From Dehalococcoidia bacterium (GTDB taxonomy: Bacteria; Chloroflexota; Dehalococcoidia; Lucifugimonadales; UBA3495): DNA of 64,000 nucleotides. The stretch is from assembly GCA_965204715.1 (NCBI GenBank), contig OZ242009.1, positions 54,396 to 118,395 on the forward strand, written 5' to 3'. Each line of letters starts with the position of its first letter. Position 1 is the stretch's first letter. The translations under genes and the position numbers were made by a program. Positions 16,338 through 28,406 of the stretch are shown here, piece after piece. The notes below the pieces were generated by a model, which had not been told where the DNA came from, did no database searches, and saw only the letters and a program-made list of their open reading frames with translations.

Positions 16338-16952
16338 ATGGCCATTTTGAGAGCAACGGATGTGGCTGATTATTTTCTGGCCATGCAAAACGCGCTCGGC
16401 AATTCCGCTCCAATCAACAACATGAAGATGCAGAAGCTCTGCTACTATGCTCAAGGGTTTGCCCTGGCGGAGCTTAAGCAACCGTTGTTCTTCGACCACA
16501 TCGAAGCGTGGAAGCATGGCCCGGTGATCCCAACTCTGTGGCGCAAGTACAAGGAATTCGGATATGGACCCATCCCGGCGCCGGACAGGGCTATAGACCA
16601 TCGGAAGTTTAGCTGGGAGATACGACTCCTGCTGCATGAAGTAGCAAGGAGTTACGGGCATTTGTCCGATTGGGAATTACGAAATAGGACCCATAGGGCA
16701 TCACCCTGGCTTGACACTCCGGACGGGGCGACGATTACACATCAGAGGATGCGGAATTTCTTTGAAACATTGGTCGATGAGAATACCCAGTCCCGCCAAC
16801 ATGATGTTGGAGGTCCGGCAGGGCAAGAACTCGTCGCTGAGATGATGGACGATCCCGTGTTCATGGAGATGACCCAGGCAGGTCTGAAGGAGCTTGACGC
16901 GGGCCGTTTTTCAACTCTTGAGGAAGTTCAGAGAGAGCTTGGCAACATTTGA
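16338..16952 (+). CDS. Panacea (DUF4065/SocA-like) antitoxin with C-terminal extension
   Basis: MKMQKLCYYAQG, EAWKHGPVIP, THRASPW; extra tail AGLKELDAGRFSTLEEV. Confidence 0.85.
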   Translation: MAILRATDVADYFLAMQNALGNSAPINNMKMQKLCYYAQGFALAELKQPLFFDHIEAWKHGPVIPTLWRKYKEFGYGPIPAPDRAIDHRKFSWEIRLLLHEVARSYGHLSDWELRNRTHRASPWLDTPDGATITHQRMRNFFETLVDENTQSRQHDVGGPAGQELVAEMMDDPVFMEMTQAGLKELDAGRFSTLEEVQRELGNI

Positions 16953-17235
16953 TGCAGTCCTCTCGGACCGGGCAAGGGCTTTCGTGCGATCTTTGAATTG
17001 GTTTGAGCAAGCAGAGTTTCAATGGGCTCTCCAAGACCTGATGAGAGACCCTCACCCCGATGGAAGAGCGAAGGTCGAGCTTAACACGTTTCCCTATGGG
17101 CCGGGCACATTGGCCTTCACCGGCCGTGAATTCTGGATGGTCTACAGGTTTCTTAACGCCACCACTATTGGCATCGCGAGCGTATATTGGCGGCCTGACT
17201 CGCCGCGGCGCGGCGGTGAATTGCTGGAGATTTGA
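16939..17235 (+). CDS. RelE/ParE-like toxin
   Basis: TTG start overlapping antitoxin end; FDAVLSDRARAF...LMRDPHP...FWMVYRF layout, 98 aa. Confidence 0.55.
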   Translation: MATFDAVLSDRARAFVRSLNWFEQAEFQWALQDLMRDPHPDGRAKVELNTFPYGPGTLAFTGREFWMVYRFLNATTIGIASVYWRPDSPRRGGELLEI

Positions 17236-17276
17236 TCAAGCCGGACTTTCACTCATACGCACCAACATACGCACCA

Positions 17277-17993
17277 ATGACGAGATCGCTGCTTTCCCGA
17301 ATCTCCGGGTACGCCCTTGATTTCCTGTTTCCCCTTAGCTGCGTGGTCTGCCGCAAGGAGGGAAGGTTTATCTGCGAAGGGTGCGAACCGGCGCTGCCCC
17401 GATTGTCCCAACCCTATTGCCGGGTCTGCGCGAGTCCGGGCGCGGGGGGTATTTGCCGGTGGTGCTTCGACGCGCCCCTGGAACTGGACGGGATTCGCGC
17501 CCCGTACCTGTTTGAAGGTCCAGTCCGGGAGGCCATCCACAGCCTGAAGTACCGGGGCGTGCGGGCCGCAGCGCCGGAACTGGGCCGCCTGCTGGCGCAA
17601 TACCTGGACACTCATCCATTGGGGTCACGCACAACAGGCGCCCCCGCGGACCTGATCGTTCCGACGCCCATGCACCCCAAACGCATGAGAGACCGGGGTT
17701 ATAACCAGGCCGAGTTGCTGGCCAGGAGTCTAAGCAAAGAGTCCGGCATTCCATTGAATACTTCGTCGTTGGCAAGGGTCAGGCACTCCGGGCCGCAGGT
17801 CGGGAAGAGCCAGGAACAGAGGCGAGCCAATGTTGCCGATAGTTTCCGTTGCGACCCGGACATGACCGGGAAAGCGATAATCGTTGTGGATGATGTGGCC
17901 ACGACGGGGAGCACCCTGTCCGCCTGCGCCTCCGCGCTGAAGGATGCCGGGGTTTCGGAAGTCTGGGGGCTGGCGCTGGCCCGGGAGGGGTAG
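17277..17993 (+). CDS. comF: ComF family amidophosphoribosyltransferase-like protein
   Basis: Double zinc ribbon, RGYNQAELL, VDDVATTGST PRPP motif. Confidence 0.9.
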   Translation: MTRSLLSRISGYALDFLFPLSCVVCRKEGRFICEGCEPALPRLSQPYCRVCASPGAGGICRWCFDAPLELDGIRAPYLFEGPVREAIHSLKYRGVRAAAPELGRLLAQYLDTHPLGSRTTGAPADLIVPTPMHPKRMRDRGYNQAELLARSLSKESGIPLNTSSLARVRHSGPQVGKSQEQRRANVADSFRCDPDMTGKAIIVVDDVATTGSTLSACASALKDAGVSEVWGLALAREG

Positions 17994-18089
17994 CAGGGAG
18001 CCAGGAAACCAGGTTGGCTGGGGGCAGGGGAAGCAAGTAGGCTTGCACAAGGACTCAAGTGATTCGCCAAAATAGTGGAATCTGAAGAT

Positions 18090-18362
18090 ATGAAGAACAT
18101 GAGCATCAGCGTGGACGACGACACCCACCGGCGACTGCGGATCATGGCGGCCGAGCAGGGGACCTCCGTGCCGGCAATGATCAGGGACCACATGTTGAGG
18201 GTCATAAATGGCCAAAGCCAAGGGAACATGGGAGAAACGGAGCCTGAACGCCGCCGCGGGCTGGCCGAGGTAACGGAGGAATTCCAGCGGAGAGGGGCCG
18301 GTATTTCCATGACCGACAACCTGACCAGAGAGGAGATGTACCAAGGCCGCGCGTCTCGCTGA
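18090..18362 (+). CDS. FitA-like ribbon-helix-helix antitoxin
   Basis: MKNMSISVDDDTHRRLRIMAAEQGTSV...LTREEMY. Confidence 0.75.
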   Translation: MKNMSISVDDDTHRRLRIMAAEQGTSVPAMIRDHMLRVINGQSQGNMGETEPERRRGLAEVTEEFQRRGAGISMTDNLTREEMYQGRASR

Positions 18363-18523
18363 CTCCAACATTCTCCTCTGCGGCCCATCCTACTGGGACG
18401 CTGCGATACTCGCGGCGGCGCGCCATGGGCTGCGATGCCGTCTACTCCGAAGATATGAACGACCACCAGGACTACGGGGGGCTGAGAGCCGTCAACCCAT
18501 TCAGCCGGGAACAGCGCATCTAA
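18352..18523 (+). pseudogene. Internally deleted, frameshifted PIN toxin remnant
   Basis: LADSNILL joined almost directly to SYWDAAILAAA, then other frame MGCDAVYSEDMNDHQDYGGLRAVNPF. Confidence 0.8.
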
Positions 18524-18584
18524 AGTCCCCCACGGCTGGTCGCGCTACTGCGACTCGGAGCGCTCGGAGAAGCCTGAAGGCAGG

Positions 18585-18947
18585 TTGCTGCGGGCCATCG
18601 GCATAGTCCCGCGGTTCAGCAAGCCGTGGAGGAATATCTACAACAACCGGGGCTCCATTGAGCGGCGGTCCAGCAGCGCCAAGCGCTCCCGACTGCCGGA
18701 CAAGCGCCAGCTTCTGAAGATGGGCAAGGATGAGTCTGCACGCCAATATATGTCCATGCTGGCGTGGCTGCTGACAGCCCTCGCGCACCTCAAAGCCGAT
18801 AACTACCGGCGCATGAGGCACATGTACATCCGGCTGCCGCGGGCCGGGAGAGAAACCGGCAGAGAACCGGCCAAACTGGAACTGGCCGAAGTCCACGACT
18901 GCCAAAGCTGCCGCCTGTGCCCACAACACTTCGCAGTCGGCGCATAG
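18585..18947 (+). pseudogene. Probable C-terminal remnant of a DDE transposase
   Basis: WRNIYNNRGSIERRSSSAKRS resembles Y-xx-R-xxx-E-x6-K; no N-terminal part or IRs recognised. Confidence 0.45.
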
Positions 18948-19173
18948 CCGCACTCGGGCATTGCACGAACCAACTCGATTCATTGGTAGACCAACCTACA
19001 GGTGATACAAAGGCAACAGCCCAGTAGGTTCACGCCGCTGGGCATAGCCATACTGGCAAGGAGAAATGCAAGAACCTCTGTAAACTGCCATCGGTGCTTG
19101 AAGCACAGTAAGCGGCTGGTCAACGGCAAAGCTCTACTCTATCCTGACAAGAAGAGTCTGAGAGGGATCTTTG

Positions 19174-22100
19174 ATGCCCAGAATTTTCGACAACCTCAGT
19201 GATAGCACCAAGCTAGTTTCCGCCCTTCAGGAGACGCTGTCCGTCTCCAACAGGGCAGATTTTTGCGTGGGCTACTTCAACCTGAGGGGTTGGGGCGGCC
19301 TCGCTCCTTACGTAAACCGATGGGACCCGGAAGACGGACCGTGCCGCATTCTAATAGGGATGCAGCGTCTTCCCCACGAGGAACTCAGGGAGGCGCTCAG
19401 TATGGCGGACCGGTCTCCGGGCATGGACAACCGCACCGCCCATCGCCTGCGCCTCCAGTTGGCGGAGCAGTTGCGCCAACAGCTGACCATCGGAGCGCCC
19501 AACAATGATGATGAACAAACCCTGCGTCGGTTGGCGGCGCAACTGCGGGCTGGCAAAGTCGCGGTCAAGCTGTTCCTCCGCCATCCCCTTCACGCCAAGC
19601 TCTATCTCCTCTATCGGGACGATCCCATCAACCCTATCGTGGGCTACCTGGGCAGCAGCAACCTGACCTTCGCCGGCCTCTCGGGGCAGGGCGAACTGAA
19701 CGTGGACGTTTTGGACCACGACGCGACCATTAAGCTCAAGCAATGGTTCGAGGACCGGTGGAAGGACCGTTTCTGCGTTGACATCACCGAGGAATTGATT
19801 CAGATCATTGAGGAGAGTTGGGCGAGGGAGGCACTGGTCCCTCCCTATCACGTTTACCTGAAGATGGCCTACCATCTCTCCCACGAAGCCCGTGCCGGCC
19901 TAGCCGAGTACAAAATTCCGAGTATATTCGGCAACCGCTTGTTTGACTTTCAGGCGGCGGCGGTGAAGATTGCGGCCCACCATCTGAATAAGCGAAACGG
20001 GGTGCTCATCGGTGACGTGGTTGGCCTGGGCAAGACCCTGATGGCGACCGCTGTGGCCCGAATCTTTGAGGATGACTTCGGACTTGAGACGCTGATCATC
20101 TGTCCAAAGAACCTGGTTTCCATGTGGGAGGACTACGCCCACGAGTACGGGTTGCGGGGCAGGGTGATCTCCATCAGCCAGGTAATCGGGCAGTTGCCCA
20201 CTCTTCGGCGTTATCACCTGGTCGTCATCGACGAGAGTCACAACCTGCGTAATCGAGATGGCAGGCGCTATCGTGCCATCCAGGAGTACGTGCGAGAAAA
20301 CGAGAGCAAGTGCATCCTTCTGTCGGCCACGCCTTACAACAAGACCTACCTGGACCTGTCCAGCCAACTGCGCATCTTCGTGGAGGATGACCAGGACTTG
20401 GGCATACGCCCTGAGAGACTGCTTCGTGAGCTGGGCGAGGTGGAGTTCAGCAGGCGGCACCAAGCGTCGCCGCGCACAATGGCTGCATTCGACCTGAGCG
20501 GGTATGCCGACGACTGGCGCGATTTGATGCGACTATACCTGGTGCGCCGGACCCGCAGCTTCATCCAGGACAACTACGCAGAAACGGACCCGGATACGGG
20601 CCGGAAATTTCTCACCTACGAAGACGGTGACAGGTCTTACTTCCCCACCCGCGTCCCAAGAACGGTCAAGTTCACTATTGACGAGGCCAATCCAAACGAC
20701 CAGTACGCCCGTCTCTACTCCCCCGGAGTCGTGGAAACCATCAACAAGCTGGGGTTGCCCAGGTATGGCCTCGGTAACTACATTCTCGACTCACCGCCAG
20801 TTCCCCCTTCTCAGGCTGAAGACAGGCAGATTCAGAACCTGTCTCGCGCAGGCAAGCGGTTAATGGGCTTCTGCCGGACCAACCTGTTCAAACGCATGGA
20901 GAGCAGCGGCGAGGCTTTCCTGCTTTCGGTCGAGCGTCATCTGCTACGAAACTATGTGTTCCTTCACGCCATCCGCAACGGCCTCCCCCTTCCTATAGGT
21001 ACGCAGGACGCCGAGATGCTCGATTCCCGGTTCACAGATGAAGATGAGCAGCAGGCCGCGATGGATTTCCTGGACTCTGAGGAAGAGGACGAACTGGACG
21101 AGGAGGTAGAGGAAGCCGAAATAGCTGGAGGCAGCGTTTGGACAATTGATCATTGCGAAAGCCGCGCCGCGGCAATATATGGAGACTACCAGCGCCTATA
21201 CCATAAGCGATTCCGGTGGCTGCGCTCCGACCTTTTCAGAAAGTCCCTGGAATCCGACCTACAGGCAGACGCTAATGCCCTGCTGGGCTTGCTTCAAACT
21301 CATGGTACTTGGCGCCCGGAACACGACGCCAAGCTGGACGCGCTCCACTCGCTACTCACAGAGACCCATTCCGATGGCAAGGTGCTGGTCTTCTCCCAGT
21401 TCGCGGACACGGTCCGATACCTTGAGGAGCAACTCAGGGACAAGGACGTAAAAAGCATGGCCGGCGTTACCGGCAACTCGGAGGAGCCGACTGCCTTTGC
21501 CAGGCGATTCAGCCCGGCCAGCAATCAAGCGGGGGATAGAGTTACAGCGGAGCGAGAGTTGCGGGTCCTGGTTGCGACCGACGTTTTGAGCGAAGGGCAG
21601 AACTTGCAGGACTGTGCCATTGTGGTCAACTACGACCTTCCCTGGGCCATCATCCGCCTAATCCAGCGGGCCGGGCGCGTCGACCGGATCGGCCAGGCGG
21701 CCAAGGAAATCCTTTGCCATTCCTTCCTGCCCGCCGAGGGTGTGGAGCGCATTATCGACCTGCGCGGGCGGGTCCGGCGCCGTCTGGAGGAGAATGCCGA
21801 GGTGGTAGGCGCCGACGAAACCTTCTTCGAGGATGAGGCCGACGAACAGACCATCCTGAACCTGTACCACGAGCGGGCCGGCATTTTGGATGGCGACCCG
21901 GATGGGGAGGTGGACCTGGCGTCTCACGCCTACCAGATATGGAAGAATGCGATCAGCGCCGACCCCAGGCTGGAACGAGCTGTGACCAGCCTGCCGGACG
22001 TGGTCTTCTCGTCTCGCCAGCACACCCCAATTGCCCAAAGACCGGAGGGAGTGTTGGTTTTCGTCCGCACTCCCGACGGAAACGACGCCCTGGCTTACGT

Positions 22101-22680
22101 CGACAAGGAAGGCAAGAACATCACGGAGTCCCAGTTGGAAATCCTGGCGGCAGCGGAGTGCAGGCCAGATACCTCGGCTCAACCGCATCACGAATTCCAT
22201 CATGGCCTTGTCGAGCAAGGAGTAAAGCATATCGCCAGGGAAGAGCAGCGCGTTGGCGGGCAACTCGGGCGACCTTCCGGCGCCCGTTTCCGCACCTATA
22301 CCCGGCTCAAGGATTACGCCGATTCCATAAAGGGACAGCTATTCGACGTTCCCGCCTTGCACCAGGCTCTGGACGATATATATCGCTATCCCCTTCGGCA
22401 GACGGCGGTGGACACCCTGAACCGGCAACTTCGCAGCGGTGTTGACGACGCCGTGCTGGCCGAGCTGGTGACCGCACTGCGGGACGAAGACCGGCTGTGC
22501 CTAACCGAAGACCACGAAGCCGAGTCCCAGGAACCGCGAGTCATCTGTTCGCTAGGGCTATTCGAGTATGGTCATAGCCTGCCGGACCCGAACAGCCTCT
22601 CTCTTGGGATAGTGACGGTCTCAACAGGAAATGAAGGCTCATGGAGCAGGGACGAAATTTATAATGACGATGGTCGATGA
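19174..22680 (+). CDS. PLD-nuclease (single HxK) / SNF2-like helicase fusion
   Basis: HAKLYLL and GSSNLT; DVVGLGKT, IDESHN, SATP, QRAGRVDR helicase motifs. Confidence 0.92.
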   Translation: MPRIFDNLSDSTKLVSALQETLSVSNRADFCVGYFNLRGWGGLAPYVNRWDPEDGPCRILIGMQRLPHEELREALSMADRSPGMDNRTAHRLRLQLAEQLRQQLTIGAPNNDDEQTLRRLAAQLRAGKVAVKLFLRHPLHAKLYLLYRDDPINPIVGYLGSSNLTFAGLSGQGELNVDVLDHDATIKLKQWFEDRWKDRFCVDITEELIQIIEESWAREALVPPYHVYLKMAYHLSHEARAGLAEYKIPSIFGNRLFDFQAAAVKIAAHHLNKRNGVLIGDVVGLGKTLMATAVARIFEDDFGLETLIICPKNLVSMWEDYAHEYGLRGRVISISQVIGQLPTLRRYHLVVIDESHNLRNRDGRRYRAIQEYVRENESKCILLSATPYNKTYLDLSSQLRIFVEDDQDLGIRPERLLRELGEVEFSRRHQASPRTMAAFDLSGYADDWRDLMRLYLVRRTRSFIQDNYAETDPDTGRKFLTYEDGDRSYFPTRVPRTVKFTIDEANPNDQYARLYSPGVVETINKLGLPRYGLGNYILDSPPVPPSQAEDRQIQNLSRAGKRLMGFCRTNLFKRMESSGEAFLLSVERHLLRNYVFLHAIRNGLPLPIGTQDAEMLDSRFTDEDEQQAAMDFLDSEEEDELDEEVEEAEIAGGSVWTIDHCESRAAAIYGDYQRLYHKRFRWLRSDLFRKSLESDLQADANALLGLLQTHGTWRPEHDAKLDALHSLLTETHSDGKVLVFSQFADTVRYLEEQLRDKDVKSMAGVTGNSEEPTAFARRFSPASNQAGDRVTAERELRVLVATDVLSEGQNLQDCAIVVNYDLPWAIIRLIQRAGRVDRIGQAAKEILCHSFLPAEGVERIIDLRGRVRRRLEENAEVVGADETFFEDEADEQTILNLYHERAGILDGDPDGEVDLASHAYQIWKNAISADPRLERAVTSLPDVVFSSRQHTPIAQRPEGVLVFVRTPDGNDALAYVDKEGKNITESQLEILAAAECRPDTSAQPHHEFHHGLVEQGVKHIAREEQRVGGQLGRPSGARFRTYTRLKDYADSIKGQLFDVPALHQALDDIYRYPLRQTAVDTLNRQLRSGVDDAVLAELVTALRDEDRLCLTEDHEAESQEPRVICSLGLFEYGHSLPDPNSLSLGIVTVSTGNEGSWSRDEIYNDDGR

Positions 22681-23127
22681 TATTCTTTTCGTCGATACGA
22701 ACGTGCTGCTGACCGCAACAGACGAATCGCGCCTGCTGCACTCCGAGGCACTTCAACTCCTGGCCGGCACCGTCAGCCGGGACAAGCGCCTGGCCACCAG
22801 TGGTCAGGTGGTTCGCGAATACCTGGTGGTGGCCACCCGTCCCATCGAAAACAACGGCTTGGGTCTAAGCGCAGCAGACGCGGAAGTAAACGTGAACGAG
22901 TTTTTGCGCGGTCTTGAACTGTTTGACGAAACCGAAGCAGTGTCCATGCGGCTGCGCCAGTTGGTACGACCCACAATCTGCGAGGCAAGCGCCTGCACGA
23001 CGCCAATATAGTCGCTACTATGGCGGTACATGGGATCCACACTCTGCTGACGCAGAACGGGACCGACTTTGCGCCATTTAACGAAATAGCAATCGTAGCA
23101 ATCCCGGACATTGCCGTTGAAGGGTGA
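22670..23127 (+). pseudogene. PIN (VapC-like) toxin with 1-nt frameshift near 22969
   Basis: FVDTNVLL...VVREYL, continued in shifted frame by THNLRGKRLHDANIVATMAVHGIHTLLTQNGTDF. Confidence 0.85.
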
Positions 23128-23142
23128 GAGAAAGGGTAACTG

Positions 23143-26100
23143 ATGCAAGCACAAGTTGACGAACTCCGTCCCTACCTGCAGAACTTTGACCTCACCGGGT
23201 TGATGGTTGAAGCGCTGGGCTGGGACTATTACCGGGCAGACCCCATCGCAGTGTCCGCGAGCGGCGAGGACTTTGAGTTGAGTCCCATAGCGCAAAAAGC
23301 GGGCTTTGCCGTCTACCGCTGCGGCCCCAATGCCCATGGAGACGTTCCGCCCCAGAGCGTCCGGCGGCAGATCGAAAATCGCGTGGCGCAAATCAACTAC
23401 GAGCACCTGATTATCTTTGTGGATGCTGCCGAAGCCCGCCAGGTCTGGCAGTGGGTCAAGCGCGAATCCGGCAAGCCTCCGGCCCTGCGCGAACTACGCT
23501 ACGAAAAAGGCCAGACGGGAACGGCCCTGCTGCAACGGCTGCGCGGCATCGAGTTCACCCTAGAGGAAGAGGGCGGCCTGGGAATCACCGACGTAACCGA
23601 GAGATTCCGCCAGTCCCTGGACATCGAGCGCGTGACCAAGCGCTTCTACGAGCGGTTCCGCAAAGAGTTGGCCGACTTCCAGAAGTTCATCACCGGAATT
23701 GCCGCGCAGGGTGACAAGGACTGGTACGCCTCCCTGATGTTGAACCGGCTGATGTTCGTCTACTTCATCCAGAAGCAGGGCTTCCTGGACGGCGACGAGC
23801 ATTACCTGCGCAACCGCCTGAAGATGGTGCAGGAAAAGGACGGCCCCGACCAGTTCCAGCGGTTCTACCGCAAGTTCCTGCTGCGCCTGTTCCACGAAGG
23901 CCTGGGCCAACCCGAGGCTGACAGGCCAGCCGAGCTTGTCGCCCTGCTGGGCCAGGTGCCTTACCTCAACGGCGGCATCTTCGACCAGCACGCCCTGGAG
24001 CGCGACAACCCGGGCATCAACATCCCGGACGCTGCCTTCCAGCAGATATTCGGCTACTTCGACCAGTACCAGTGGCACCTGGACGACCGGCCCAGTGGCA
24101 ACGACAACGAAATCAACCCCGACGTGCTGGGCTACATCTTCGAGAAATACGTCAACCAGAAGCAGATGGGCGCCTACTACACCAAGGAGGACATCACCGG
24201 CTACATCGCCCGCAACACGGTCATTCCCCGCCTGCTGGAAATGGCCCAGGCGGAATGCCTGACTGACTTCGCTCCCGAAGGCGGCGTGTGGCGGCTGCTC
24301 CAGGACGACCCCGACAACTACATCTACCCGTCCGTAGGCCACGGCGTCGCCTGGGACTATTCCCCCGACAGCGTCATACGGCTGGAGCAGCCACTGGAGT
24401 TGCCGGACAACATCGCCGCTGGCCTGGAAGACACCGCGAAGCGCGGCGAGTGGAACCGGCCCGCCCCGGAGGACTACGCCCTGCCCACCGAGACCTGGCG
24501 CGAGCTGATAGCCCGCCGCCACCGCTACGAGGGAGTCCGCGGCAAGCTGGCAGCCGGCGAAGTGCATAGCGTCAACGACCTCATCACCCTCAACCTCGAC
24601 AGCGAGCGTTTCGCCAGAGACGTCATCGTCAACAGCGAAGGGCCGGAACTGGTGCGGGCCGTCTGGAAAGCCCTGACCCGGATCTCCGTCCTCGATCCGG
24701 CCTGCGGCTCCGGCGCCTTCCTGTTCGCCGCCCTCAACATCCTGGAGCCGCTGTACTCCGCAACCTTGCAGGCCATGCGTGGATTCGTTGCCGACTTAGA
24801 AACCTCGCGGCGGCCCCGCAATCCAAACGCCCTGCGCGACTTCCAGGAAATCCTGGACGCCGCCGGACAGCACCGCAACGAGCGCTACTACATCCTCAAG
24901 TCCATCATCGTCAACAACCTCTACGGCGTGGACATCATGGAGGAGGCGGTCGAAATCTGCCGCCTGCGCTTGTTCCTCAAGCTGGCCGCCCAACTCGAGA
25001 CCTACGATCAGATTGAACCCCTGCCCGACATCGACTTCAACATCCAACCCGGCAACAGCCTTGTCGGGTTCACCTCAGCCGCCGCTGTCCGCCGGGCTAT
25101 GGAGGTGGACCTCAAGGGCCAGCGGCGAATGATAGCCCCGGAGGAAGAAGGCGCTCTGCGCAGCATCGAGAACAAGGCCGCGTCCATCGCCCGCCAGTAC
25201 CACTACTTCCAGCAAGTCCAGACGGAATACGGCATGGGCTACGCCGAGCTTGCCGACTCTAAACTGAACCTGCAATCTAGGCTGAACGAATTGCGGGGCG
25301 AACTGGATGCCCTGCTGGCCAGAGAGTACGGGGTGGACGCCAACAAGTCCACGCCATTCCAGAAGTGGCAGGTAAGCCATCGGCCGTTCCACTGGTTCGT
25401 CGAGTTCCACGGCATCATGCACAACGGCGGCTTTGACGTAGTGGTGGGCAACCCACCGTATGTCGAGTACAGCAAGGTCAAAGGTGACTATACGGTCAAT
25501 GGTTACGAGACGGAGTCTTGCGGCAATTTATATGCGTTCATGATGGAACGCTCTGGGCATTTGCTGAATGGTCGCGGCCACTATGGAATGATTGTGCCTT
25601 CGGGGGTGCTAGGCTTAAGCGATACTCGTTCTTTGAGAAGAGTTTTGTTTGATCGCTTTGCCAATGCTTTTTGCAGCACATTCTCAATTCGCCCATCTAA
25701 GCTTTTCGATGGGGTTGACCAAAGGCTCTGCATTTTCTTGGCCGACTGCTCAAATCCTATCAACGGAATCAAGACCACGCAGTACCACCACTGGAACAGC
25801 GAGGAACGGAGCTTTCTGTTCCACCTGCTTTGCTATGCCGAATCGTCTGAACACAGTCGCCTTCATCGCATCCCTCAAATTGGGTCGCCTGTAGCCTCTA
25901 GGATTTTGGCAGCCATAGAGCGAATGGCAGACTCTACGGCAAATTCGTACTACGCACTCAAGCAATCGGGCACCTTGTTGCACTACCATCGGAGCCCGCG
26001 CTACTGGATACGCGCAATGGACTTCGAACAATACTTTCAAAGTGCTACCCGATCTCGTTCAGTGCACATTTTCGAGACCTGCATTTTGATAATACGAGGG

Positions 26101-26453
26101 CTGCAAATGCAGTTGGGTCTGTACTCAACAGTTCTCTTTTCTTTTTCTGGTTCATTACCCTGGGTAATGGTCGAAATATCACGGGCGAAGACGTGGGAGA
26201 GTTTCCTGTCGGCAGACTGCCAGCGCAGCGCGATTTCTCAGAGTTGTTTGATAAACTAATGGAGGACTACAAAAGGCATTCTGTTTTTCGCCGCCGGTCT
26301 GACGCCGAATTTCAGGAATTTCATCCCAGCAAATCAAAATCAATTATCGACGAAATCGACCGGGTGCTGGCCGAACACTACGGGTTCACCGACGAGGAGT
26401 TGGACTTCATCATCAACTACGACATCAAGTACCGCATGGGGCGGGAGGGGTGA
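23143..26453 (+). pseudogene. Large N6-adenine DNA methyltransferase with TRD (Eco57I/type IIG-like), 1-nt frameshift near 26067
   Basis: YLNGGIF, GAYYT, VLDPACGSGAFL, FDVVVGNPPY; C-terminus LNSSLFFFW...IDEIDRVLAEHYGFTDEELDFI is in the frame starting 26067. Confidence 0.88.
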
Positions 26454-27097
26454 TGGAAGACCGAAGAACAGTTTTAGACCACATTGATGGCATAGAAGTT
26501 TCGGCAGAGGCCCACCATAACAACCTGACCGTCTTACAATCCCTGGACATCGGGTTGTTCAAACTGGCTGAGTCTGCTCGTCAACATGAGGTCGAGGCGC
26601 TGGAGCGATTCGGCAACGACAATATAAGATTCTTCAGCGATTTCGGGAGCCCCGTGGAAATGTGGCTTGGATGTATGTTTGACTGGTTTGCGATAAGCCT
26701 TGTCAGCTACATGCGTACGGTTCAGCTAATGCGTTTGATGGAAATCAAACGCTGGGACCTGGAAGAACTGAAACAGTCCCCTGCGCAACAGAAACTGCAC
26801 GATGCTTGTGAGGCGTACATCAAGAGGGTCGCCCCAGAGGTGCTTGAATGGCGCAACAAAATCGCGGCCCACAGGGTCGCTACTGATCCCAGGCGGTCTG
26901 ATAGTCTGGCTCTCCTCACATATTCGACCATGCCTGCGGTCGGGTACCATAGTCCTTACTACTGGGTTGGTCATTTCACACTTACCTTAGGTGATGGCAG
27001 TTCTGCTGCCTTACCGCAGTGGTCGCTAACGAAAAAGTACGAGGAACTGTCTTCAAGATTCTGGCCCAACAGAAAACTCACGGAGCTTGATTGGTGA
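26453..27097 (+). CDS. Putative HEPN-domain RNase
   Basis: Helical protein with WRNKIAAH (Rx5H); TGATG overlap with MTase stop. Confidence 0.55.
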   Translation: MEDRRTVLDHIDGIEVSAEAHHNNLTVLQSLDIGLFKLAESARQHEVEALERFGNDNIRFFSDFGSPVEMWLGCMFDWFAISLVSYMRTVQLMRLMEIKRWDLEELKQSPAQQKLHDACEAYIKRVAPEVLEWRNKIAAHRVATDPRRSDSLALLTYSTMPAVGYHSPYYWVGHFTLTLGDGSSAALPQWSLTKKYEELSSRFWPNRKLTELDW

Positions 27098-27112
27098 AAC
27101 CTCCAATAGCCG

Positions 27113-27247
27113 ATGGCGGGAAAAATGGAGGAAACACCGCGGATCAGGACGACGGTACAGCCGGGCAGCAGGGCGGACTTTGCCAGCCCAGAGTTGGAAG
27201 CGGGGCAGCGTGTAGACTTGGAGGAGGCCGAACACTGTAGGAGATAG
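27113..27247 (+). pseudogene. Remnant of small antitoxin-like gene (PRIRTTVQPG)
   Basis: Manual translation; paralogous fragment PRIRTTVLPGG at 27853-27900. Confidence 0.4.
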
Positions 27248-27250
27248 GGC

Positions 27251-27481
27251 ATGAAATCACTGGACAGGATTACCTTCGATCCCGCCGTCATGGGGGGCAA
27301 GGCGTGCGTCCGGGGCATGCGCGTAACCGCCGGTACGGTAGTAGGGCTGTTGGCGGCCGGCCGCTCCCGTGCGGAGATAATTCAAGCTTACCCGTATCTT
27401 GAGGGGGAAGACATCGACCAGTGCCTGGCCTACGCGGCCTGGCGACTGGAGGAACGCGAGGTTCCTCTTTACGCGCCATGA
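27251..27481 (+). CDS. DUF433 antitoxin
   Basis: RITFDPAVMGGKACVRGMRV...YPYLEGEDIDQCLAYAA. Confidence 0.92.
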   Translation: MKSLDRITFDPAVMGGKACVRGMRVTAGTVVGLLAAGRSRAEIIQAYPYLEGEDIDQCLAYAAWRLEEREVPLYAP

Positions 27482-27814
27482 GGCTGAAATTCCTCGTTGA
27501 CATGAACCTGTCACCCCAATGGGTGCCCGTTCTGCGGAAGCACGGGTGGCAGGCAGTGCACTGGTCCACCGTTGGAGACCCGGGCGCCAGCGACAAAGAA
27601 ATCATGGACTGGGCCAGGAGTAACCAACACGTCGTGTTCACCCACGACCTGGACTTCGGCACCATGCCGGCGCTCTCGCACGGAAGACACCCTGCCGGAC
27701 TATCTGGAGGAGCCGGTCGTTGCCGCTCTCAACCAGCATGAAGCCGACTTGTCCGCTGGGGCCCTGGTCGTGGTTGATGAAAGCCGAAATCGGGTCCGAG
27801 TGCTGCCGATATGA
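27478..27814 (+). pseudogene. DUF5615 PIN-like toxin with internal deletion/frameshift
   Basis: FLVDMNLSP...THDLDFG then frame change to ...GALVVVDESRNRVRVLPI. Confidence 0.85.
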
Positions 27815-27909
27815 GACTGCATGCCGTGCGTCCCCAACCGATGACGCCAGCGATGCCAATATCACCACGCATCAGGACGACAGTATTGCCAGGAGGCGAG
27901 AAGCAGGAA

Positions 27910-28155
27910 ATGGAATTGTACCAGTTGGACTACATCCTGCACGAACCCTGCGAAGACCAGGGCTGGTTCTACATGGCCGAGATACCGGCGCTGCCCGGCT
28001 GCCGGGCTCGGGCTGAGACCGCTTCCGGGACCCTGGCCGAGCTGCCGGCGGTGGCGGAGCAGTTCATCCTGTCCTACAAAGACCGGGGCAAACCCCTGCC
28101 CGCCGCGACAACCCCGTCCCCAGCCGGAAAGGGCAGAATCTCCGTGGCGGTATGA
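27910..28155 (+). CDS. hicB: HicB-like antitoxin (short form)
   Basis: YMAEIPALPGCRARAET...GKPLP. Confidence 0.75.
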   Translation: MELYQLDYILHEPCEDQGWFYMAEIPALPGCRARAETASGTLAELPAVAEQFILSYKDRGKPLPAATTPSPAGKGRISVAV

Positions 28156-28406
28156 CCTGCCGGGAACTGCCGAGAAAACTCCGCCGGCTGGGATGCGCCT
28201 GGGAACGCCAGGCCGGAGGTTCTCACGAAATCCGGGTCAACCCGGCCAACGACAGGGAAACCACCATTCCGAGGCACGCCAACCGCGACCTGCCCGTTGA
28301 AACTTGTGCTGGACTAGGCAACACGACATCTGGCGGGTGGAATCCGACACCGTCGGACGCCGCAGGCCGGATTCTTAATTTCGCAAGCGTCTCAGCTTCG
28401 GATTGA
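28152..28406 (+). CDS. hicA: HicA-like toxin, C-terminus atypical (possibly degraded)
   Basis: LRRLGCAWERQAGGSHE...TTIPRHANRDLP; ATGA overlap with hicB. Confidence 0.7.
   Translation: MTCRELPRKLRRLGCAWERQAGGSHEIRVNPANDRETTIPRHANRDLPVETCAGLGNTTSGGWNPTPSDAAGRILNFASVSASD

What the first reader, a model, noticed from the sequence alone, without database searches (positions are those of the whole stretch)
19174..27097. Candidate defence system: PLD-SNF2 helicase-nuclease + N6-MTase/TRD + HEPN-like effector
Seen: co-oriented, tightly packed genes inside a TA-rich island (18.1-28.4 kb). Known: PLD nuclease plus helicase occurs in NgoAVII/CglI (C5 MTase, separate subunits) and DISARM (DrmABC), but this layout matches neither; I see no clear PD-(D/E)XK motif at the MTase N-terminus. 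Inference: ATP-dependent RM-like system in which the MTase-TRD gives specificity, the PLD-helicase cuts, and the HEPN gene is an abortive back-up. Best novel-system candidate in the window.
Basis: partly seen in the sequence, partly recalled or inferred. Interest (0 to 1): 0.8.

Follow-up and report, generated by a model that had tools for sequence, protein, structure and literature searches.

The report
Helicase-nuclease and methylase defence pair
This is a widespread but unnamed two-gene, restriction-modification-like defence module (a motor-driven PLD nuclease plus a large adenine methylase that chooses the DNA site); the copy in this window looks broken, and the small HEPN-like gene behind it is optional cargo.

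Summary
All lie on the + strand, tightly packed, between toxin-antitoxin genes. In this copy the MTase and the PIN gene each carry one frameshift, which I could not check against reads. The conserved unit is two genes. A tblastn MTase match follows the helicase in 78 of 80 related loci, and in 5 of 6 plasmids of cultured bacteria, including Synechocystis pSYSX, where the MTase is slr6050/M.Ssp6803IV. The helicase's nuclease and motor motifs are invariant in 87 of 87 sequences, while the TRD is variable. A second, intact copy with a different TRD lies elsewhere in the genome. The 215-aa gene is probably HEPN (invariant Rx5H; weak fold matches). It accompanies the pair in only 4 of 80 loci, so it is accessory cargo. 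The best reading is an ATP-dependent RM-like system, closest in function to MANTIS/Gao_RL and Type ISP but lacking their defining parts. Morgan et al. (2009) predicted this general class. Verdict: a new variant of a known kind, of moderate interest.

The parts
19174..22680 (+). PLD(HKD)-SNF2 helicase-nuclease, intact ORF (1168 aa from the ATG at 19174; the ORF list starts at TTG 19171). Residue numbers count from 19171. PLD domain: aa 118-197, with HxK at 19591-19599 and GSSN at 19651-19662. Walker A GLGKT: 20023-20037. DESH: 20230-20241. Helicase_C: aa 721-841. Conserved C-terminal domain of unknown function: aa 880-1132 (21808-22566). 37-aa tail (22567-22677), seen only in loci that carry the PIN gene.
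   Evidence: all motifs invariant in 87/87; GAGAGGGA 7 nt before the ATG. Homologues match from residue 1 or 2.
22631..23127 (+). PIN (VapC-like) gene nested between helicase and MTase. It is broken here by a 1-nt deletion near 22965, so the ORF as it stands ends at 23011. There is no separate antitoxin ORF.
   Evidence: The paralogue (L085:11934-12425:-) is an intact 163 aa. The gene is present in 10/80 loci.
23143..26453 (+). MmeI/Eco57I-type gamma-class N6-adenine MTase with TRD (~1100 aa), with one frameshift between 26025 and 26064. N-terminal alpha/beta domain: aa 1-125 (23143-23517). MmeI/HsdM-N-like helical domain: about aa 160-320. Motif I DPACGSG: 24694-24714. NPPY: 25450-25461. Variable TRD: about 25497-26348. 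Conserved tail: 26349-26450.
26453..27097 (+). 215-aa HEPN-like accessory gene. Its start overlaps the MTase stop (TGATG). The invariant R-x5-H motif is at 26852-26872.
   Evidence: (R135, K137, H141, R142 invariant in 43/43). No Pfam, PADLOC, NCBIfam or PHROGs hit.
16338..18362 (+). Upstream flank: SocA/Panacea antitoxin-like gene (16338-16952), a 113-aa ORF with no hit (16894-17235), a ComF-like phosphoribosyltransferase (17232-17993) and an RHH antitoxin-like gene (18075-18362). This is context, not part of the module.
   Evidence: Homology to the near relative L061 starts only at 19056.
27251..28406 (+). Downstream flank: the DUF433 + DUF5615/PIN_10 pair and the HicB-like + HicA pair. This is context, shared with the near relative L061 up to 28303.

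Best explanation
This is a two-gene, ATP-dependent, restriction-modification-like defence module. Gene 1 encodes the restriction subunit: one HKD (PLD) nuclease half-site fused to a RapA/SNF2-type translocase and a conserved C-terminal domain. Gene 2 encodes the modification and specificity subunit. It has an MmeI/PglX-like gamma-class N6-adenine MTase core with a swappable C-terminal TRD, preceded by an HsdM/MmeI-like helical domain and an N-terminal alpha/beta domain that lacks the canonical MmeI nuclease motif. Inferred mechanism: the MTase-TRD reads a short asymmetric site and methylates one strand of host DNA. On unmodified sites it recruits or licenses the helicase-nuclease. That subunit must dimerise to build one PLD active site, moves on DNA using ATP, and cuts. 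PIN, HEPN-like, HNH and other toxin-type genes nested in or behind the operon are optional cargo (addiction or back-up modules), not core parts. The copy in this window is probably inactive, because the TRD of the MTase and the PIN gene are frameshifted. An intact paralogue with a different TRD lies 1.7 Mb away. Shown here: the domain content, the conservation of the pair, motif invariance, TRD variability and the patchy, plasmid-borne distribution. Inferred: complex formation, hemimethylation, which nuclease cuts, and defence itself.
For: Pair conservation. In 80 loci holding helicase homologues of 61-96% identity, tblastn finds an MTase homologue directly downstream in 78/80. Clustering of all ORFs finds only these two families in more than 43 loci: helicase 80/80 and MTase 77/80. 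The helicase stop and MTase start are 0 to 3 nt apart in 33 of 77 loci.

Cultured bacteria. Six plasmid loci were checked (Synechocystis, Anabaena, Pelobacter, N. punctiforme, Rhodococcus, Pseudarthrobacter). tblastn finds a homologue of the window's MTase after the helicase in 5/6. In the sixth, Pseudarthrobacter, there is no tblastn match, but the gene after the helicase is annotated 'DNA methyltransferase'.

Catalytic conservation. HxK, GSxN, Walker A, DESH, SAT and motifs V and VI are invariant in 87/87 helicases. MTase motif I and NPP are invariant and Y is at least 90% conserved in 54 MTases.

Specificity module. MTase column identity is 0.6-0.9 over aa 1-800 and 0.35-0.5 over aa 800-1050. 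The two copies in this genome are 90.7% identical in DNA from 19258 to 25496, unrelated across 25497-26348 (the TRD), and alike again in the last 100 nt. GC falls to 0.49-0.55 across the TRD and the last gene.

Architecture. Residues 164-312 match the MmeI helical domain (5hr4_J, Z 8.1, rmsd 3.9, 128 aligned), HsdM N-domains (Z 6-7.5) and PglX (Z 7.2). The profile search against PDB sequences has BREX PglX/BrxX as best hits (E 8.5e-10).

Mobile, defence-like distribution. The helicase was found in 7 of 150 other genomes sampled from the same class, in 7 different families. On plasmids, 23 records carry a match covering at least 80% of the helicase. Neighbours include SMODS/Cap17-like genes, MTaX1-HNH, toxin-antitoxin pairs, Abi and TIR genes.

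Dependence of restriction on the MTase. 9 loci have a clearly truncated MTase (<950 aa) and 3 have none, all beside a full-length helicase ORF. The nearest relative, L061, lost MTase residues beyond 225 but keeps a 96%-identical helicase.

Experimental anchors from papers. slr6050, which is 46.6% identical to the window's MTase over 977 aa, is tentatively M.Ssp6803IV, methylating GA(m6A)GGC, and its knock-out could not be segregated (PMC6105098, passages read). In MANTIS, a dimeric PLD-SF2 helicase effector acts after site recognition by a hemimethylating MTase (bioRxiv 10.64898/2026.09.23.753747; abstract and sections 3 and 16 read). Morgan et al. 2009 proposed this division of labour for MmeI homologues that lack the nuclease motif (PMC2731913, passages read).
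Against: No experiment exists on this family's helicase, and no methylome for this genome.

The complex is not shown.

The MTase N-terminal domain keeps invariant K52, E87, Q103 and W104, and near-invariant H88 and D94. It has weak restriction-endonuclease-like fold matches (Z 3.5-4.8) and an ESM Atlas lead to MmeI_N (score 0.86, below the tool's 0.9 mark). It could therefore be an active, non-canonical nuclease, which would make the MTase a self-sufficient Type IIL enzyme.

The non-segregating slr6050 knock-out fits an independent nuclease at least as well as an MTase-dependent one.

The 80 loci were selected as the best helicase matches, so 'helicase always intact' is partly a selection effect.

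Most of the 80 loci come from related metagenome-assembled genomes and are not independent.

This copy's frameshifts could be assembly errors; read evidence could not be obtained.

At one search's 0.01 cut-off, the 25 PADLOC families shown of 48 matched for the helicase held no full-length match (best: 'HKD+Snf2' C3a139, E 4.5e-44, partial). PADLOC did not name a system for the pair.
Confidence: 0.7

Rival explanations
1. The MTase is a complete, self-sufficient Type IIG/IIL (MmeI-like) restriction-modification enzyme that cuts with its own N-terminal domain. The PLD-helicase is then a separate enzyme, for example a SauUSI-like Type IV restriction enzyme, or an accessory that merely travels with it.
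For: The PADLOC profile 'REase_MTase_IIG' PDLC03628 matches at E 4.7e-283 over positions 9-913, plus 1022-1097. The domain order is MmeI-like. The N-terminal alpha/beta domain has invariant charged residues, weak restriction-endonuclease-like fold matches (9y1l_B Z 4.8; 3h1t_A Z 4.1) and an Atlas lead to MmeI_N at 0.86. Hagemann et al. note weak HSDR_N similarity in Slr6050. According to the MANTIS preprint, PLD-helicases can work alone, as SauUSI does.
Against: The pairing is near-obligate, with overlapping stop and start codons, which is not expected for two independent enzymes. MmeI_N matches 0/55 members. On the strand where MmeI has ExK, the acidic residue is present in only 28/55 members and no lysine follows it; the window copy has R there (MmeI positions from PMC2731913). 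Morgan et al. report that true MmeI-family enzymes have no consistently flanking genes, whereas homologues without the motif sit next to helicases. No reader or TRD family was detected in the helicase, although its C-terminal 250 aa are unassigned.
Confidence: 0.15
2. This is a three-gene system, in which the HEPN-like gene is an integral abortive-infection effector of the module.
For: The HEPN-like gene's start overlaps the MTase stop here and directly abuts the MTase end in L097 and L100, the latter at only 43% identity of the HEPN-like protein. 6/15 loci of this gene family lie beside a PLD-helicase/MTase pair, and 2 more lie behind other restriction genes (EcoO109I, SRA-HNH). The family has an invariant Rx5H motif. 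HEPN proteins are the top fold matches (7ae2_A Z 7.3, 1ylm_B Z 6.7, 5yep_B Z 6.2). HEPN back-up effectors in RM-like loci are described in PMC3710099 (passages) and PMC12839542 (section 35).
Against: The gene is present in only 4/80 loci of the pair and absent from the intact paralogue in the same genome. The same slot holds many unrelated genes. 7/15 loci of the gene family are not next to any detected RM gene. The fold Z-scores are below the tool's own threshold for helical proteins, and Foldseek found nothing.
Confidence: 0.1
3. This is not a defence system. The pair is an epigenetic or housekeeping module, a RapA-like remodeller plus an orphan MTase that regulates transcription, replication or repair.
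For: The best PDB sequence matches of the helicase are RapA (E 1.3e-08). slr6050 behaved as essential in Synechocystis. No restriction has been shown for any member.
Against: The distribution is patchy (7/150 genomes in the class). The pair sits on plasmids. The TRD is hypervariable and there are two copies with different TRDs. The PLD nuclease motif is invariant. Defence and toxin-antitoxin genes are nested in or lie beside the pair. The MTase is frequently lost.
Confidence: 0.05

Closest known systems
MANTIS / Gao_RL / 'BR type-2' (MtsABCD). Sources: bioRxiv 10.64898/2026.09.23.753747 and Rakesh & Krishnan, NAR 2026 (PMC12839542).
   Same: The effector is an N-terminal HKD/PLD nuclease fused to an SF2 helicase-like ATPase. 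In MANTIS it is a dimer with one composite PLD site. An N6-adenine MTase with a TRD recognises short asymmetric sites and hemimethylates them, and restriction targets unmethylated DNA ([paper section], 98, 100, 101).
   Different: No DUF499 AAA+ loader (MtsA) is present. The genome's only DUF499 hit is 2.9 Mb away, in an Hma-type locus, and tblastn found none in the 80 loci. DUF3780 was not found (the control was silent). The MTase is of the Eco57I/MmeI type with a C-terminal TRD, not DUF1156-type. NCBIfam 'phospholipD_antiphage' scores 141.6 bits against a cut-off of 1100; that this NCBIfam model stands for MtsD is my guess.
[quoted passage not shown]
   Same: The functional parts are the same: nuclease, SF2 motor, gamma-class adenine MTase and TRD, with hemimethylation of asymmetric sites (abstracts listed). 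A related pair, L096, carries a Type_ISP_C specificity domain (E 4.5e-88).
   Different: The parts are on two polypeptides instead of one. The nuclease is PLD rather than Mrr, and the motor is SNF2/RapA-like. The window's own TRD does not match Type_ISP_C.
MmeI family (Type IIL/IIG), and the MmeI homologues without a nuclease motif that sit beside helicases (YeeA/YeeB/YeeC; Morgan et al. 2009, PMC2731913)
   Same: The MTase shares the helical spacer, gamma MTase core and C-terminal TRD, and the PADLOC IIG profile matches end to end. The division of labour proposed for the YeeA group is the one proposed here.
   Different: The MmeI D..ExK motif is not conserved. The partner is a single PLD-SNF2 fusion, not a DEAD helicase plus a GIY-YIG protein.
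Class 1 DISARM (DrmD SNF2 helicase, DrmMI MTase, DrmA/B, DrmC PLD)
   Same: It combines an SNF2 helicase, a large N6 MTase and a PLD nuclease. There are partial PADLOC hits to DrmD (E 1.6e-34) and DrmMI (E 9.3e-27).
   Different: No conserved DrmA- or DrmB-like genes occur in the 80 loci. Here the PLD is fused to the helicase. NCBIfam DISARM_DrmD scores 139 bits against a cut-off of 610.
NgoAVII / CglI and SauUSI (PLD nucleases working with helicase motors)
   Same: A PLD nuclease is coupled to an ATP-driven SF2 motor, and RE_NgoFVII matches the PLD domain.
   Different: NgoAVII and CglI have separate R and H subunits and C5 MTases. SauUSI is a single-protein Type IV enzyme aimed at modified DNA (abstracts). 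Here an N6 MTase-TRD is the obligate neighbour.

Membership tests
MANTIS / Gao_RL / BR type-2 | DUF499 AAA+ ATPase (MtsA) in the operon | tested here: not met
   PF04465 hits the own genome only at C1:2984942, 2.9 Mb from the window, inside an Hma-type locus. tblastn with that protein found nothing in the 80 loci, which is a weak test. No third ORF family is conserved with the pair.
MANTIS / Gao_RL / BR type-2 | Stand-alone DUF3780 protein (MtsB) | tested here: inconclusive
   PF12635 was not found in the own genome, but the search rang in none of the 14 control genomes either.
MANTIS / Gao_RL / BR type-2 | DUF1156-type N6-MTase | tested here: not met
   Pfam gives Eco57I, MmeI_Mtase and N6_Mtase, with no DUF1156. 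The DUF1156 requirement comes from PMC12839542 section 29.
MANTIS / Gao_RL / BR type-2 | N-terminal HKD nuclease fused to an SF2/SNF2 helicase | tested here: met
MmeI family (Type IIL/IIG) | N-terminal PD-ExK nuclease domain with conserved D, E and K (D70, E80, K82 in MmeI) | tested here: inconclusive
   MmeI_N matches 0/55 members. At the topologically equivalent strand the acidic residue is present in 28/55 and no K follows. However, fold matches to restriction-endonuclease-like proteins reach Z 3.5-4.8, the Atlas gives an MmeI_N lead at 0.86, and other charged residues are invariant.
MmeI family (Type IIL/IIG) | Helical spacer, gamma-class MTase and C-terminal TRD in one chain | tested here: met
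   5hr4_J Z 8.1 over residues 164-312. MmeI_Mtase and Eco57I match. The C-terminal region is variable.
MmeI family (Type IIL/IIG) | Acts alone, with no consistently flanking genes | tested here: not met
   The helicase is the upstream neighbour in all 78 loci where the MTase was found. The criterion comes from PMC2731913.
Type ISP | Single polypeptide: Mrr nuclease, SF2 helicase, coupler, MTase, TRD | tested here: not met
   There are two ORFs and a PLD nuclease.
Class 1 DISARM | DrmA, DrmB and DrmC core with DrmD and DrmMI | tested here: not met
   The DrmD NCBIfam scores 139.4 bits against a cut-off of 610. No further conserved genes occur in the 80 loci. DrmA and DrmB families were not searched by name.
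NgoAVII / CglI | C5 MTase, R subunit (PLD + B3) and a separate H helicase subunit | tested here: not met
   The MTase is an N6-adenine type with NPPY, and the PLD is fused to the helicase.
HEPN superfamily (the 215-aa gene) | Rx4-6H motif on the last core helix of a four-helix bundle | tested here: met
   R135-x5-H141 is invariant in 43/43 sequences and lies on helix 129-144 of a model with pLDDT 85.5 and pTM 0.84.
HEPN superfamily (the 215-aa gene) | HEPN fold | tested here: inconclusive
   VIA-align ranks 1, 2 and 5 are HEPN proteins (Z 7.3, 6.7, 6.2), but Z is under 8 for a helical protein. Foldseek gave no match with E <= 0.001. There is no Pfam hit, and the Atlas clusters are unnamed.
PIN / VapC (22631-23127) | PIN domain above the Pfam threshold, with an intact reading frame | tested here: inconclusive
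   The domain is met (28 bits, cut-off 23.6; the paralogue scores 34.6 bits). The frame is broken in the window. No cognate antitoxin ORF was found.

The most novel reading that the evidence does not exclude
This is a minimal, loader-independent relative of MANTIS and Type ISP. An MmeI-like MTase-TRD whose nuclease domain has degenerated into a docking domain directly licenses a dimeric PLD-SNF2 motor nuclease on unmethylated asymmetric sites. The operon's R-M junction and 3' end are dedicated landing sites for toxin cargo. At the junction, one search identified PIN, MazE-PIN and a ParE-carrying pair by Pfam among the insert families found in 26/77 loci; HEPN-like and HNH genes sit at the 3' end. 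This cargo would enforce retention or act as a back-up when the system is inhibited. The family would be a new named RM-like type. It has hundreds of 50%-identity clusters and a ready genetic model in Synechocystis pSYSX.
Probability: 0.4. Interest if true: 0.7.

Novelty: new variant of a known kind. Interest (0 to 1): 0.55.

Why it matters
If the pair works as proposed, it is the simplest known arrangement in which a hemimethylating MTase-TRD steers a separate PLD motor nuclease. It would do so without the AAA+ loader that MANTIS needs and without the fusion of Type ISP. That would help explain how single-strand methylation systems tell self from non-self.

It would also put a name on genes now annotated only as 'helicase-related protein' and 'DNA methyltransferase', and scored as a single-gene Type IIG enzyme by the PADLOC profile. 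It would explain why slr6050 could not be deleted in Synechocystis. The swappable TRD between conserved flanks, and the nested toxin genes, are further testable features. The window's own copy is probably a decaying one, so the value lies in the family, not in this locus.

Tried and rejected
- Complex prediction, helicase C-terminal domain (aa 880-1132) with MTase N-terminus (aa 1-330), own alignments: 'no answer', score 0.01 against a mark of 0.32, controls not run. This is neither for nor against binding.
- Foldseek against the PDB: no match with E <= 0.001 for either model.
- Sequence searches of the PDB: only the MTase core matches BrxX/PglX, and only the helicase core matches RapA and others. 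Nothing matched the N-terminal domain of the MTase or the C-terminal domain of the helicase.
- ESM Atlas: unnamed clusters for the HEPN-like protein, and for the MTase N-terminus only a sub-threshold MmeI_N lead.
- The upstream HTH_17 gene, present in 21-22/80 loci, has no counterpart in the window (tblastn, best E 0.63).
- Promoter and terminator scan of 18300-27400: 0 promoter-like sites (shuffles give 3.1) and 5 terminator-like sites (shuffles give 8.3). This is uninformative.
- BR type-2/MANTIS membership was rejected (see Membership tests), as were DISARM, NgoAVII/CglI and Type ISP.
- The Synechocystis VapBC pair inserted at the same junction is not homologous to the window's PIN gene (no tblastn hit), so a shared ancestral insertion was rejected.
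- Literature: searches found no paper describing a two-gene PLD-SNF2 + MmeI-type MTase system. slr6047 and slr6048 returned nothing, and slr6049 appears once in a toxin-antitoxin survey that I did not read. Supplementary Data S1 and S4 of PMC12839542, and the MANTIS supplement, may list such two-gene variants. REBASE could not be consulted.

Full report
WHAT IS THERE

On the + strand the window holds four tightly packed genes.

- A 1168-aa protein (ATG 19174, stop 22680) with an N-terminal PLD/HKD domain followed by an SNF2-type ATPase. Pfam gives PLDc_2 at 29 bits (cut-off 27) and RE_NgoFVII at 24.4 bits (cut-off 23.8) for aa 118-197. It also gives SNF2-rel_dom (E 2.6e-10) and Helicase_C (E 1e-17).
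- A PIN gene starting at 22631 (28 bits, cut-off 23.6).
- A large N6-adenine MTase from 23143 (Eco57I E 1.2e-25, MmeI_Mtase, N6_Mtase).
- A 215-aa gene (26453-27097) with no hit in Pfam, PADLOC, NCBIfam or PHROGs.

The MTase stop codon and the ATG of the last gene overlap (TGATG). The flanks hold toxin-antitoxin genes: SocA_Panacea, RHH, DUF433 + DUF5615/PIN_10, and HicB-like + HicA. GC is 0.57-0.64 over most of the operon and falls to 0.49-0.55 at 25000-27000.

THE COPY IS BROKEN

PADLOC profile PDLC03628 ('Type IIG REase-MTase', 1100 positions) matches the 1038-aa ORF over positions 9-913 (E 4.7e-283). It matches the 86-aa ORF 26193-26453 over positions 1022-1097. Frame-by-frame translation and tblastn against an intact paralogue and against Slr6050 place one frame change between 26025 and 26064, inside the TRD.

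The PIN gene has a 1-nt deletion near 22965 relative to the paralogue, and not in a homopolymer run. The helicase is intact.

I could not test whether these frameshifts are real.

THE CONSERVED UNIT IS TWO GENES

A scan of one genome per species found 182 relatives of the helicase. The best 80 were kept, at 61-96% identity. They are mostly MAGs labelled Dehalococcoidia or Chloroflexota, plus Poribacteria, Bryobacterales, Gemmatimonadota, Spirochaetia and others.

- tblastn finds an MTase homologue directly downstream in 78/80 loci, the PIN gene in 10/80 and the 215-aa gene in 4/80.
- All-against-all clustering of 7005 ORFs from these loci shows only two families conserved with each other: helicase in 80/80 and MTase in 77/80.
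- The next most frequent genes outside the pair are a 211-aa gene about 3 kb downstream (43 loci) and an HTH_17 gene just upstream (21-22 loci).
- The helicase stop and MTase start are 0 to 3 nt apart in 33 of 77 loci.

The pair is also found in cultured bacteria, annotated blandly as 'helicase-related protein' and 'DNA methyltransferase'. Examples are Pelobacter propionicus pPRO1, Anabaena cylindrica pANACY.05, Rhodococcus, Pseudarthrobacter and Synechocystis 6803 pSYSX.

Of the 6 plasmid loci inspected, tblastn detects homology of the downstream gene to the window's MTase in 5. One of the 5 is Nostoc punctiforme, where that gene is annotated 'RNA-binding domain-containing protein'. In Pseudarthrobacter the gene is annotated 'DNA methyltransferase' but is not detectable by tblastn. 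In Rhodococcus only the N-terminal 350 residues match (23% identity), so the enigmatic N-terminal part travels with the helicase.

A phmmer search of 1.84 billion representatives with the first 260 residues (the PLD module) gave 272 clusters at E <= 1e-30 and 928 at E <= 1e-10. Many of the 150 listed are 1080-1250 aa long.

Within the window's own class, 7 of 150 other sampled genomes carry the helicase (E <= 1e-100), in 7 different families. The distribution is patchy, as expected for mobile defence genes.

SIGNS OF FUNCTION

In 87 helicases (the window, 80 loci and 6 plasmids) the following are invariant:

- the HxK and GSxN motifs of the PLD half-site;
- Walker A (GLGKT);
- DESH;
- SAT;
- motifs V and VI.

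There is a single HKD motif per chain, so an active site needs a dimer. This follows from established knowledge of Nuc and BfiI, and the MANTIS preprint shows it for MtsD.

In 54 full-length MTases, motif I and NPP are invariant and the Y is at least 90% conserved. Column identity is 0.6-0.9 over residues 1-800 and falls to 0.35-0.5 over residues 800-1050. The last ~40 residues are conserved again.

The genome holds a second copy 1.7 Mb away. Its helicase is 95% identical, its PIN gene is intact (163 aa) and its MTase is intact (1117 aa). It has no 215-aa gene, and is followed by SMODS and Cap17-like genes. In DNA the two copies are 90.7% identical from 19258 to 25496 and unrelated across 25497-26348. 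They are alike again for the last 100 nt of the MTase. This is a TRD cassette exchanged between conserved flanks. It coincides with the GC dip.

THE MTASE'S ARCHITECTURE

An AlphaFold model of residues 1-330 (pLDDT 84.8) has two parts.

- Residues 164-312 align with the helical domain of MmeI (5hr4_J, Z 8.1, rmsd 3.9, 128 residues). They also align with HsdM N-terminal domains (Z 5.1-7.5) and PglX (Z 7.2).
- Residues 1-125 form an alpha/beta domain with only weak matches. These include restriction-endonuclease-like proteins (9y1l_B Z 4.8, 3h1t_A Z 4.1, 3ijm_B Z 3.5), interleaved with unrelated folds.

Other evidence on the N-terminal domain:

- Foldseek found nothing.
- Pfam MmeI_N matches 0 of 55 members, while DUF7814 matches 54/55 and MmeI_hel 14/55.
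- The ESM Atlas gives an MmeI_N cluster only at 0.86, rank 18, a lead below the tool's mark.
- Morgan et al. place MmeI's D70 at the start of strand 2 and E80/K82 at the end of strand 3 (passages read). At the topologically equivalent places this family has D/E in 46/55, E in 28/55 (R in the window copy) and no lysine.
- Other residues are invariant or nearly so: K52, E87, H88, D94, Q103, W104.

I read the domain as a degenerate nuclease-like domain kept for another role, most simply contact with the helicase. An unusual active site is not excluded.

THE 215-AA GENE

56 homologues were found, none with a name or a Pfam domain. The alignment of 43 of them has an invariant R135-x5-H141 with K137 and R142.

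The model (pLDDT 85.5, pTM 0.84) is a four-helix core with the motif on helix 129-144. VIA-align ranks HEPN toxins first, second and fifth (7ae2_A Z 7.3, rmsd 3.4, 122/141 aligned; 1ylm_B Z 6.7; 5yep_B Z 6.2). Further HEPN proteins appear at Z 5.2-5.6. These scores are below the tool's own caution line for helical proteins, and Foldseek found nothing. HEPN is likely but not proven.

Of the 15 genomic loci of this family:

- 6 lie beside a PLD-helicase/MTase pair, one of them a distant pair whose MTase carries a Type_ISP_C domain;
- 1 follows an EcoO109I-type endonuclease;
- 1 follows an SRA-HNH gene;
- 7 are in other contexts.

It is therefore RM-associated cargo, not a core subunit.

NESTED CARGO IS A THEME

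In 26 of 77 loci, genes are inserted between the helicase and the MTase:

- this PIN gene (10 loci);
- a MazE + PIN pair (3-4 loci);
- an unknown gene + ParE pair (3 loci);
- a protein with an RNA-polymerase alpha-CTD domain (7 loci);
- a 190-aa unknown (4 loci);
- an IS transposase, and a DUF3800 gene.

Synechocystis has an unrelated VapBC pair in the same place. Directly after the MTase come MTaX1-HNH (7 loci) and many singletons. Rakesh & Krishnan describe the same habit for BREX and BR systems (section 35 read).

HOW IT MOST LIKELY WORKS

The MTase-TRD sets the specificity and protects the host by methylating one strand of an asymmetric site. The evidence is indirect. Slr6050 is 46.6% identical over 977 residues. 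It is tentatively assigned GA(m6A)GGC in Synechocystis, by elimination and by REBASE, without biochemical proof. MmeI, Type ISP, BREX and MANTIS MTases behave this way.

The PLD-SNF2 protein is the ATP-driven nuclease.

Does restriction depend on the MTase, as in Types I, III and ISP and in MANTIS? Several observations suggest so. 9 loci have a clearly truncated MTase and 3 have none, all beside a full-length helicase ORF. The nearest relative, L061, has lost most of the MTase but keeps a 96%-identical helicase. The window itself has the same state. An independent nuclease would make these states lethal.

Two caveats apply. The loci were chosen as the best helicase matches. And the non-segregating slr6050 knock-out in Synechocystis points the other way, or reflects slow dilution in a polyploid cell.

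COMPARISON WITH KNOWN SYSTEMS

MANTIS (formerly Gao_RL, BR type-2) is the closest characterised system. It has a PLD-SF2 helicase dimer (MtsD) acting after recognition by a hemimethylating MTase. It also needs a DUF499 AAA+ loader and a small co-regulator (abstract and sections 3 and 16 read). BR MTases carry DUF1156, by the account of PMC12839542 (sections 28-30 read).

Here DUF499 is absent from the locus and DUF3780 was not found (control silent). The MTase is of the MmeI/Eco57I type. The genome does have a separate Hma/BR type-1 locus 2.9 Mb away: SNF2+NOV_C, a DUF1156 MTase, AAA_21 and DUF499.

Type ISP enzymes have the same parts in one chain, but with an Mrr nuclease. Class 1 DISARM has an SNF2 helicase, a large MTase and a separate PLD, plus DrmAB; the NCBIfam DrmD score is far below its cut-off (139 vs 610).

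Morgan et al. 2009 noted MmeI homologues that lack the nuclease motif and sit beside a helicase. They speculated on exactly this division of labour, but for YeeA/YeeB/YeeC, which use a DEAD helicase and a GIY-YIG protein.

My literature searches found no description of the PLD-SNF2 + MmeI-type pair. Supplements and REBASE were not available.

VERDICT

It is wrong to count the HEPN-like gene as a third subunit.

This is a new variant of a known kind of system. It is widespread, unnamed and experimentally approachable. The window's own copy is probably decaying. Interest: 0.55.

Noticed in passing
G000:C1:1753000-1772000 (L085; module on the - strand, helicase at L085:12376-15951): A second, intact copy of the module lies in the same genome. 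Its helicase is 95% identical, its PIN gene is 163 aa and its MTase is 1117 aa, with a different TRD. It is followed by a 382-aa unknown gene, a SMODS nucleotidyltransferase and a Cap17-like ATP nucleosidase, which is a CBASS-like neighbour.
   Followed up: partly
G000:C1:2975115-2987291 (L093:4115-16291): A separate Hma / 'BR type-1' locus: an SNF2 helicase with NOV_C (DUF3883) nuclease (1144 aa), a 265-aa unknown gene, a DUF1156 MTase (998 aa), an AAA_21 ATPase (431 aa) and a DUF499 ATPase (932 aa). DUF5131 lies downstream.
   Followed up: partly
L001-L080, junction between helicase and MTase: 26 of 77 loci carry inserted genes exactly at the helicase-MTase junction, from at least seven unrelated families. 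These are PIN alone, MazE+PIN, an unknown gene + ParE, an RNA_pol_A_CTD-domain protein, a 190-aa unknown, an IS transposase and DUF3800. Synechocystis pSYSX has an unrelated VapBC pair at the same place. The junction looks like a recurrent landing site for toxin-antitoxin cargo.
   Followed up: partly
window 22567-22680 and 22631-23127: In loci that carry this PIN gene, the helicase ORF is 37 residues longer and overlaps the PIN start, and there is no room for a separate antitoxin gene. Whether the helicase tail or another product neutralises the PIN toxin is unexplained.
   Followed up: no
L061:13974-15833 versus window 23818-26781: The closest relative (helicase 96% identical) has replaced MTase residues beyond about 225 and the 5' half of the HEPN-like gene with about 1.2 kb of other DNA. 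This is independent decay of the same copy in a sister lineage.
   Followed up: partly
L032, L037, L048, L050, L076: Helicases 75-78% identical to the window's occur in MAGs labelled Bryobacterales, Gemmatimonadota and Spirochaetia. This is the same level as many MAGs labelled Dehalococcoidia. It suggests recent transfer across phyla, or binning errors.
   Followed up: no
L096:1703-8645: A distant PLD-helicase (24-31% identity) is followed by a 1137-aa MTase with a Type_ISP_C specificity domain (E 4.5e-88) and then a homologue of the HEPN-like gene. This is a sister version of the pair that links it to Type ISP enzymes.
   Followed up: partly
L002:11471-12460 and six other loci: A 329-aa MTaX1 ('methylase-associated X1') + HNH_2 protein directly follows the MTase, with overlapping stop and start, in 7 of 80 loci. 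It is an alternative occupant of the slot held by the HEPN-like gene in the window.
   Followed up: partly
window 27421-27741 and 28152-28406: The DUF5615/PIN_10 ORF matches only profile positions 2-72 of 110. The HicA ORF runs about 30 residues past the 58-position profile. These toxin genes may also be damaged, which would fit either a decaying island or indel errors in the assembly.
   Followed up: no
window 16338-17235: A SocA/Panacea-domain antitoxin-like gene (204 aa) overlaps a 113-aa ORF with no family hit. This is possibly a Panacea-type toxin-antitoxin pair with an unknown toxin.
   Followed up: no
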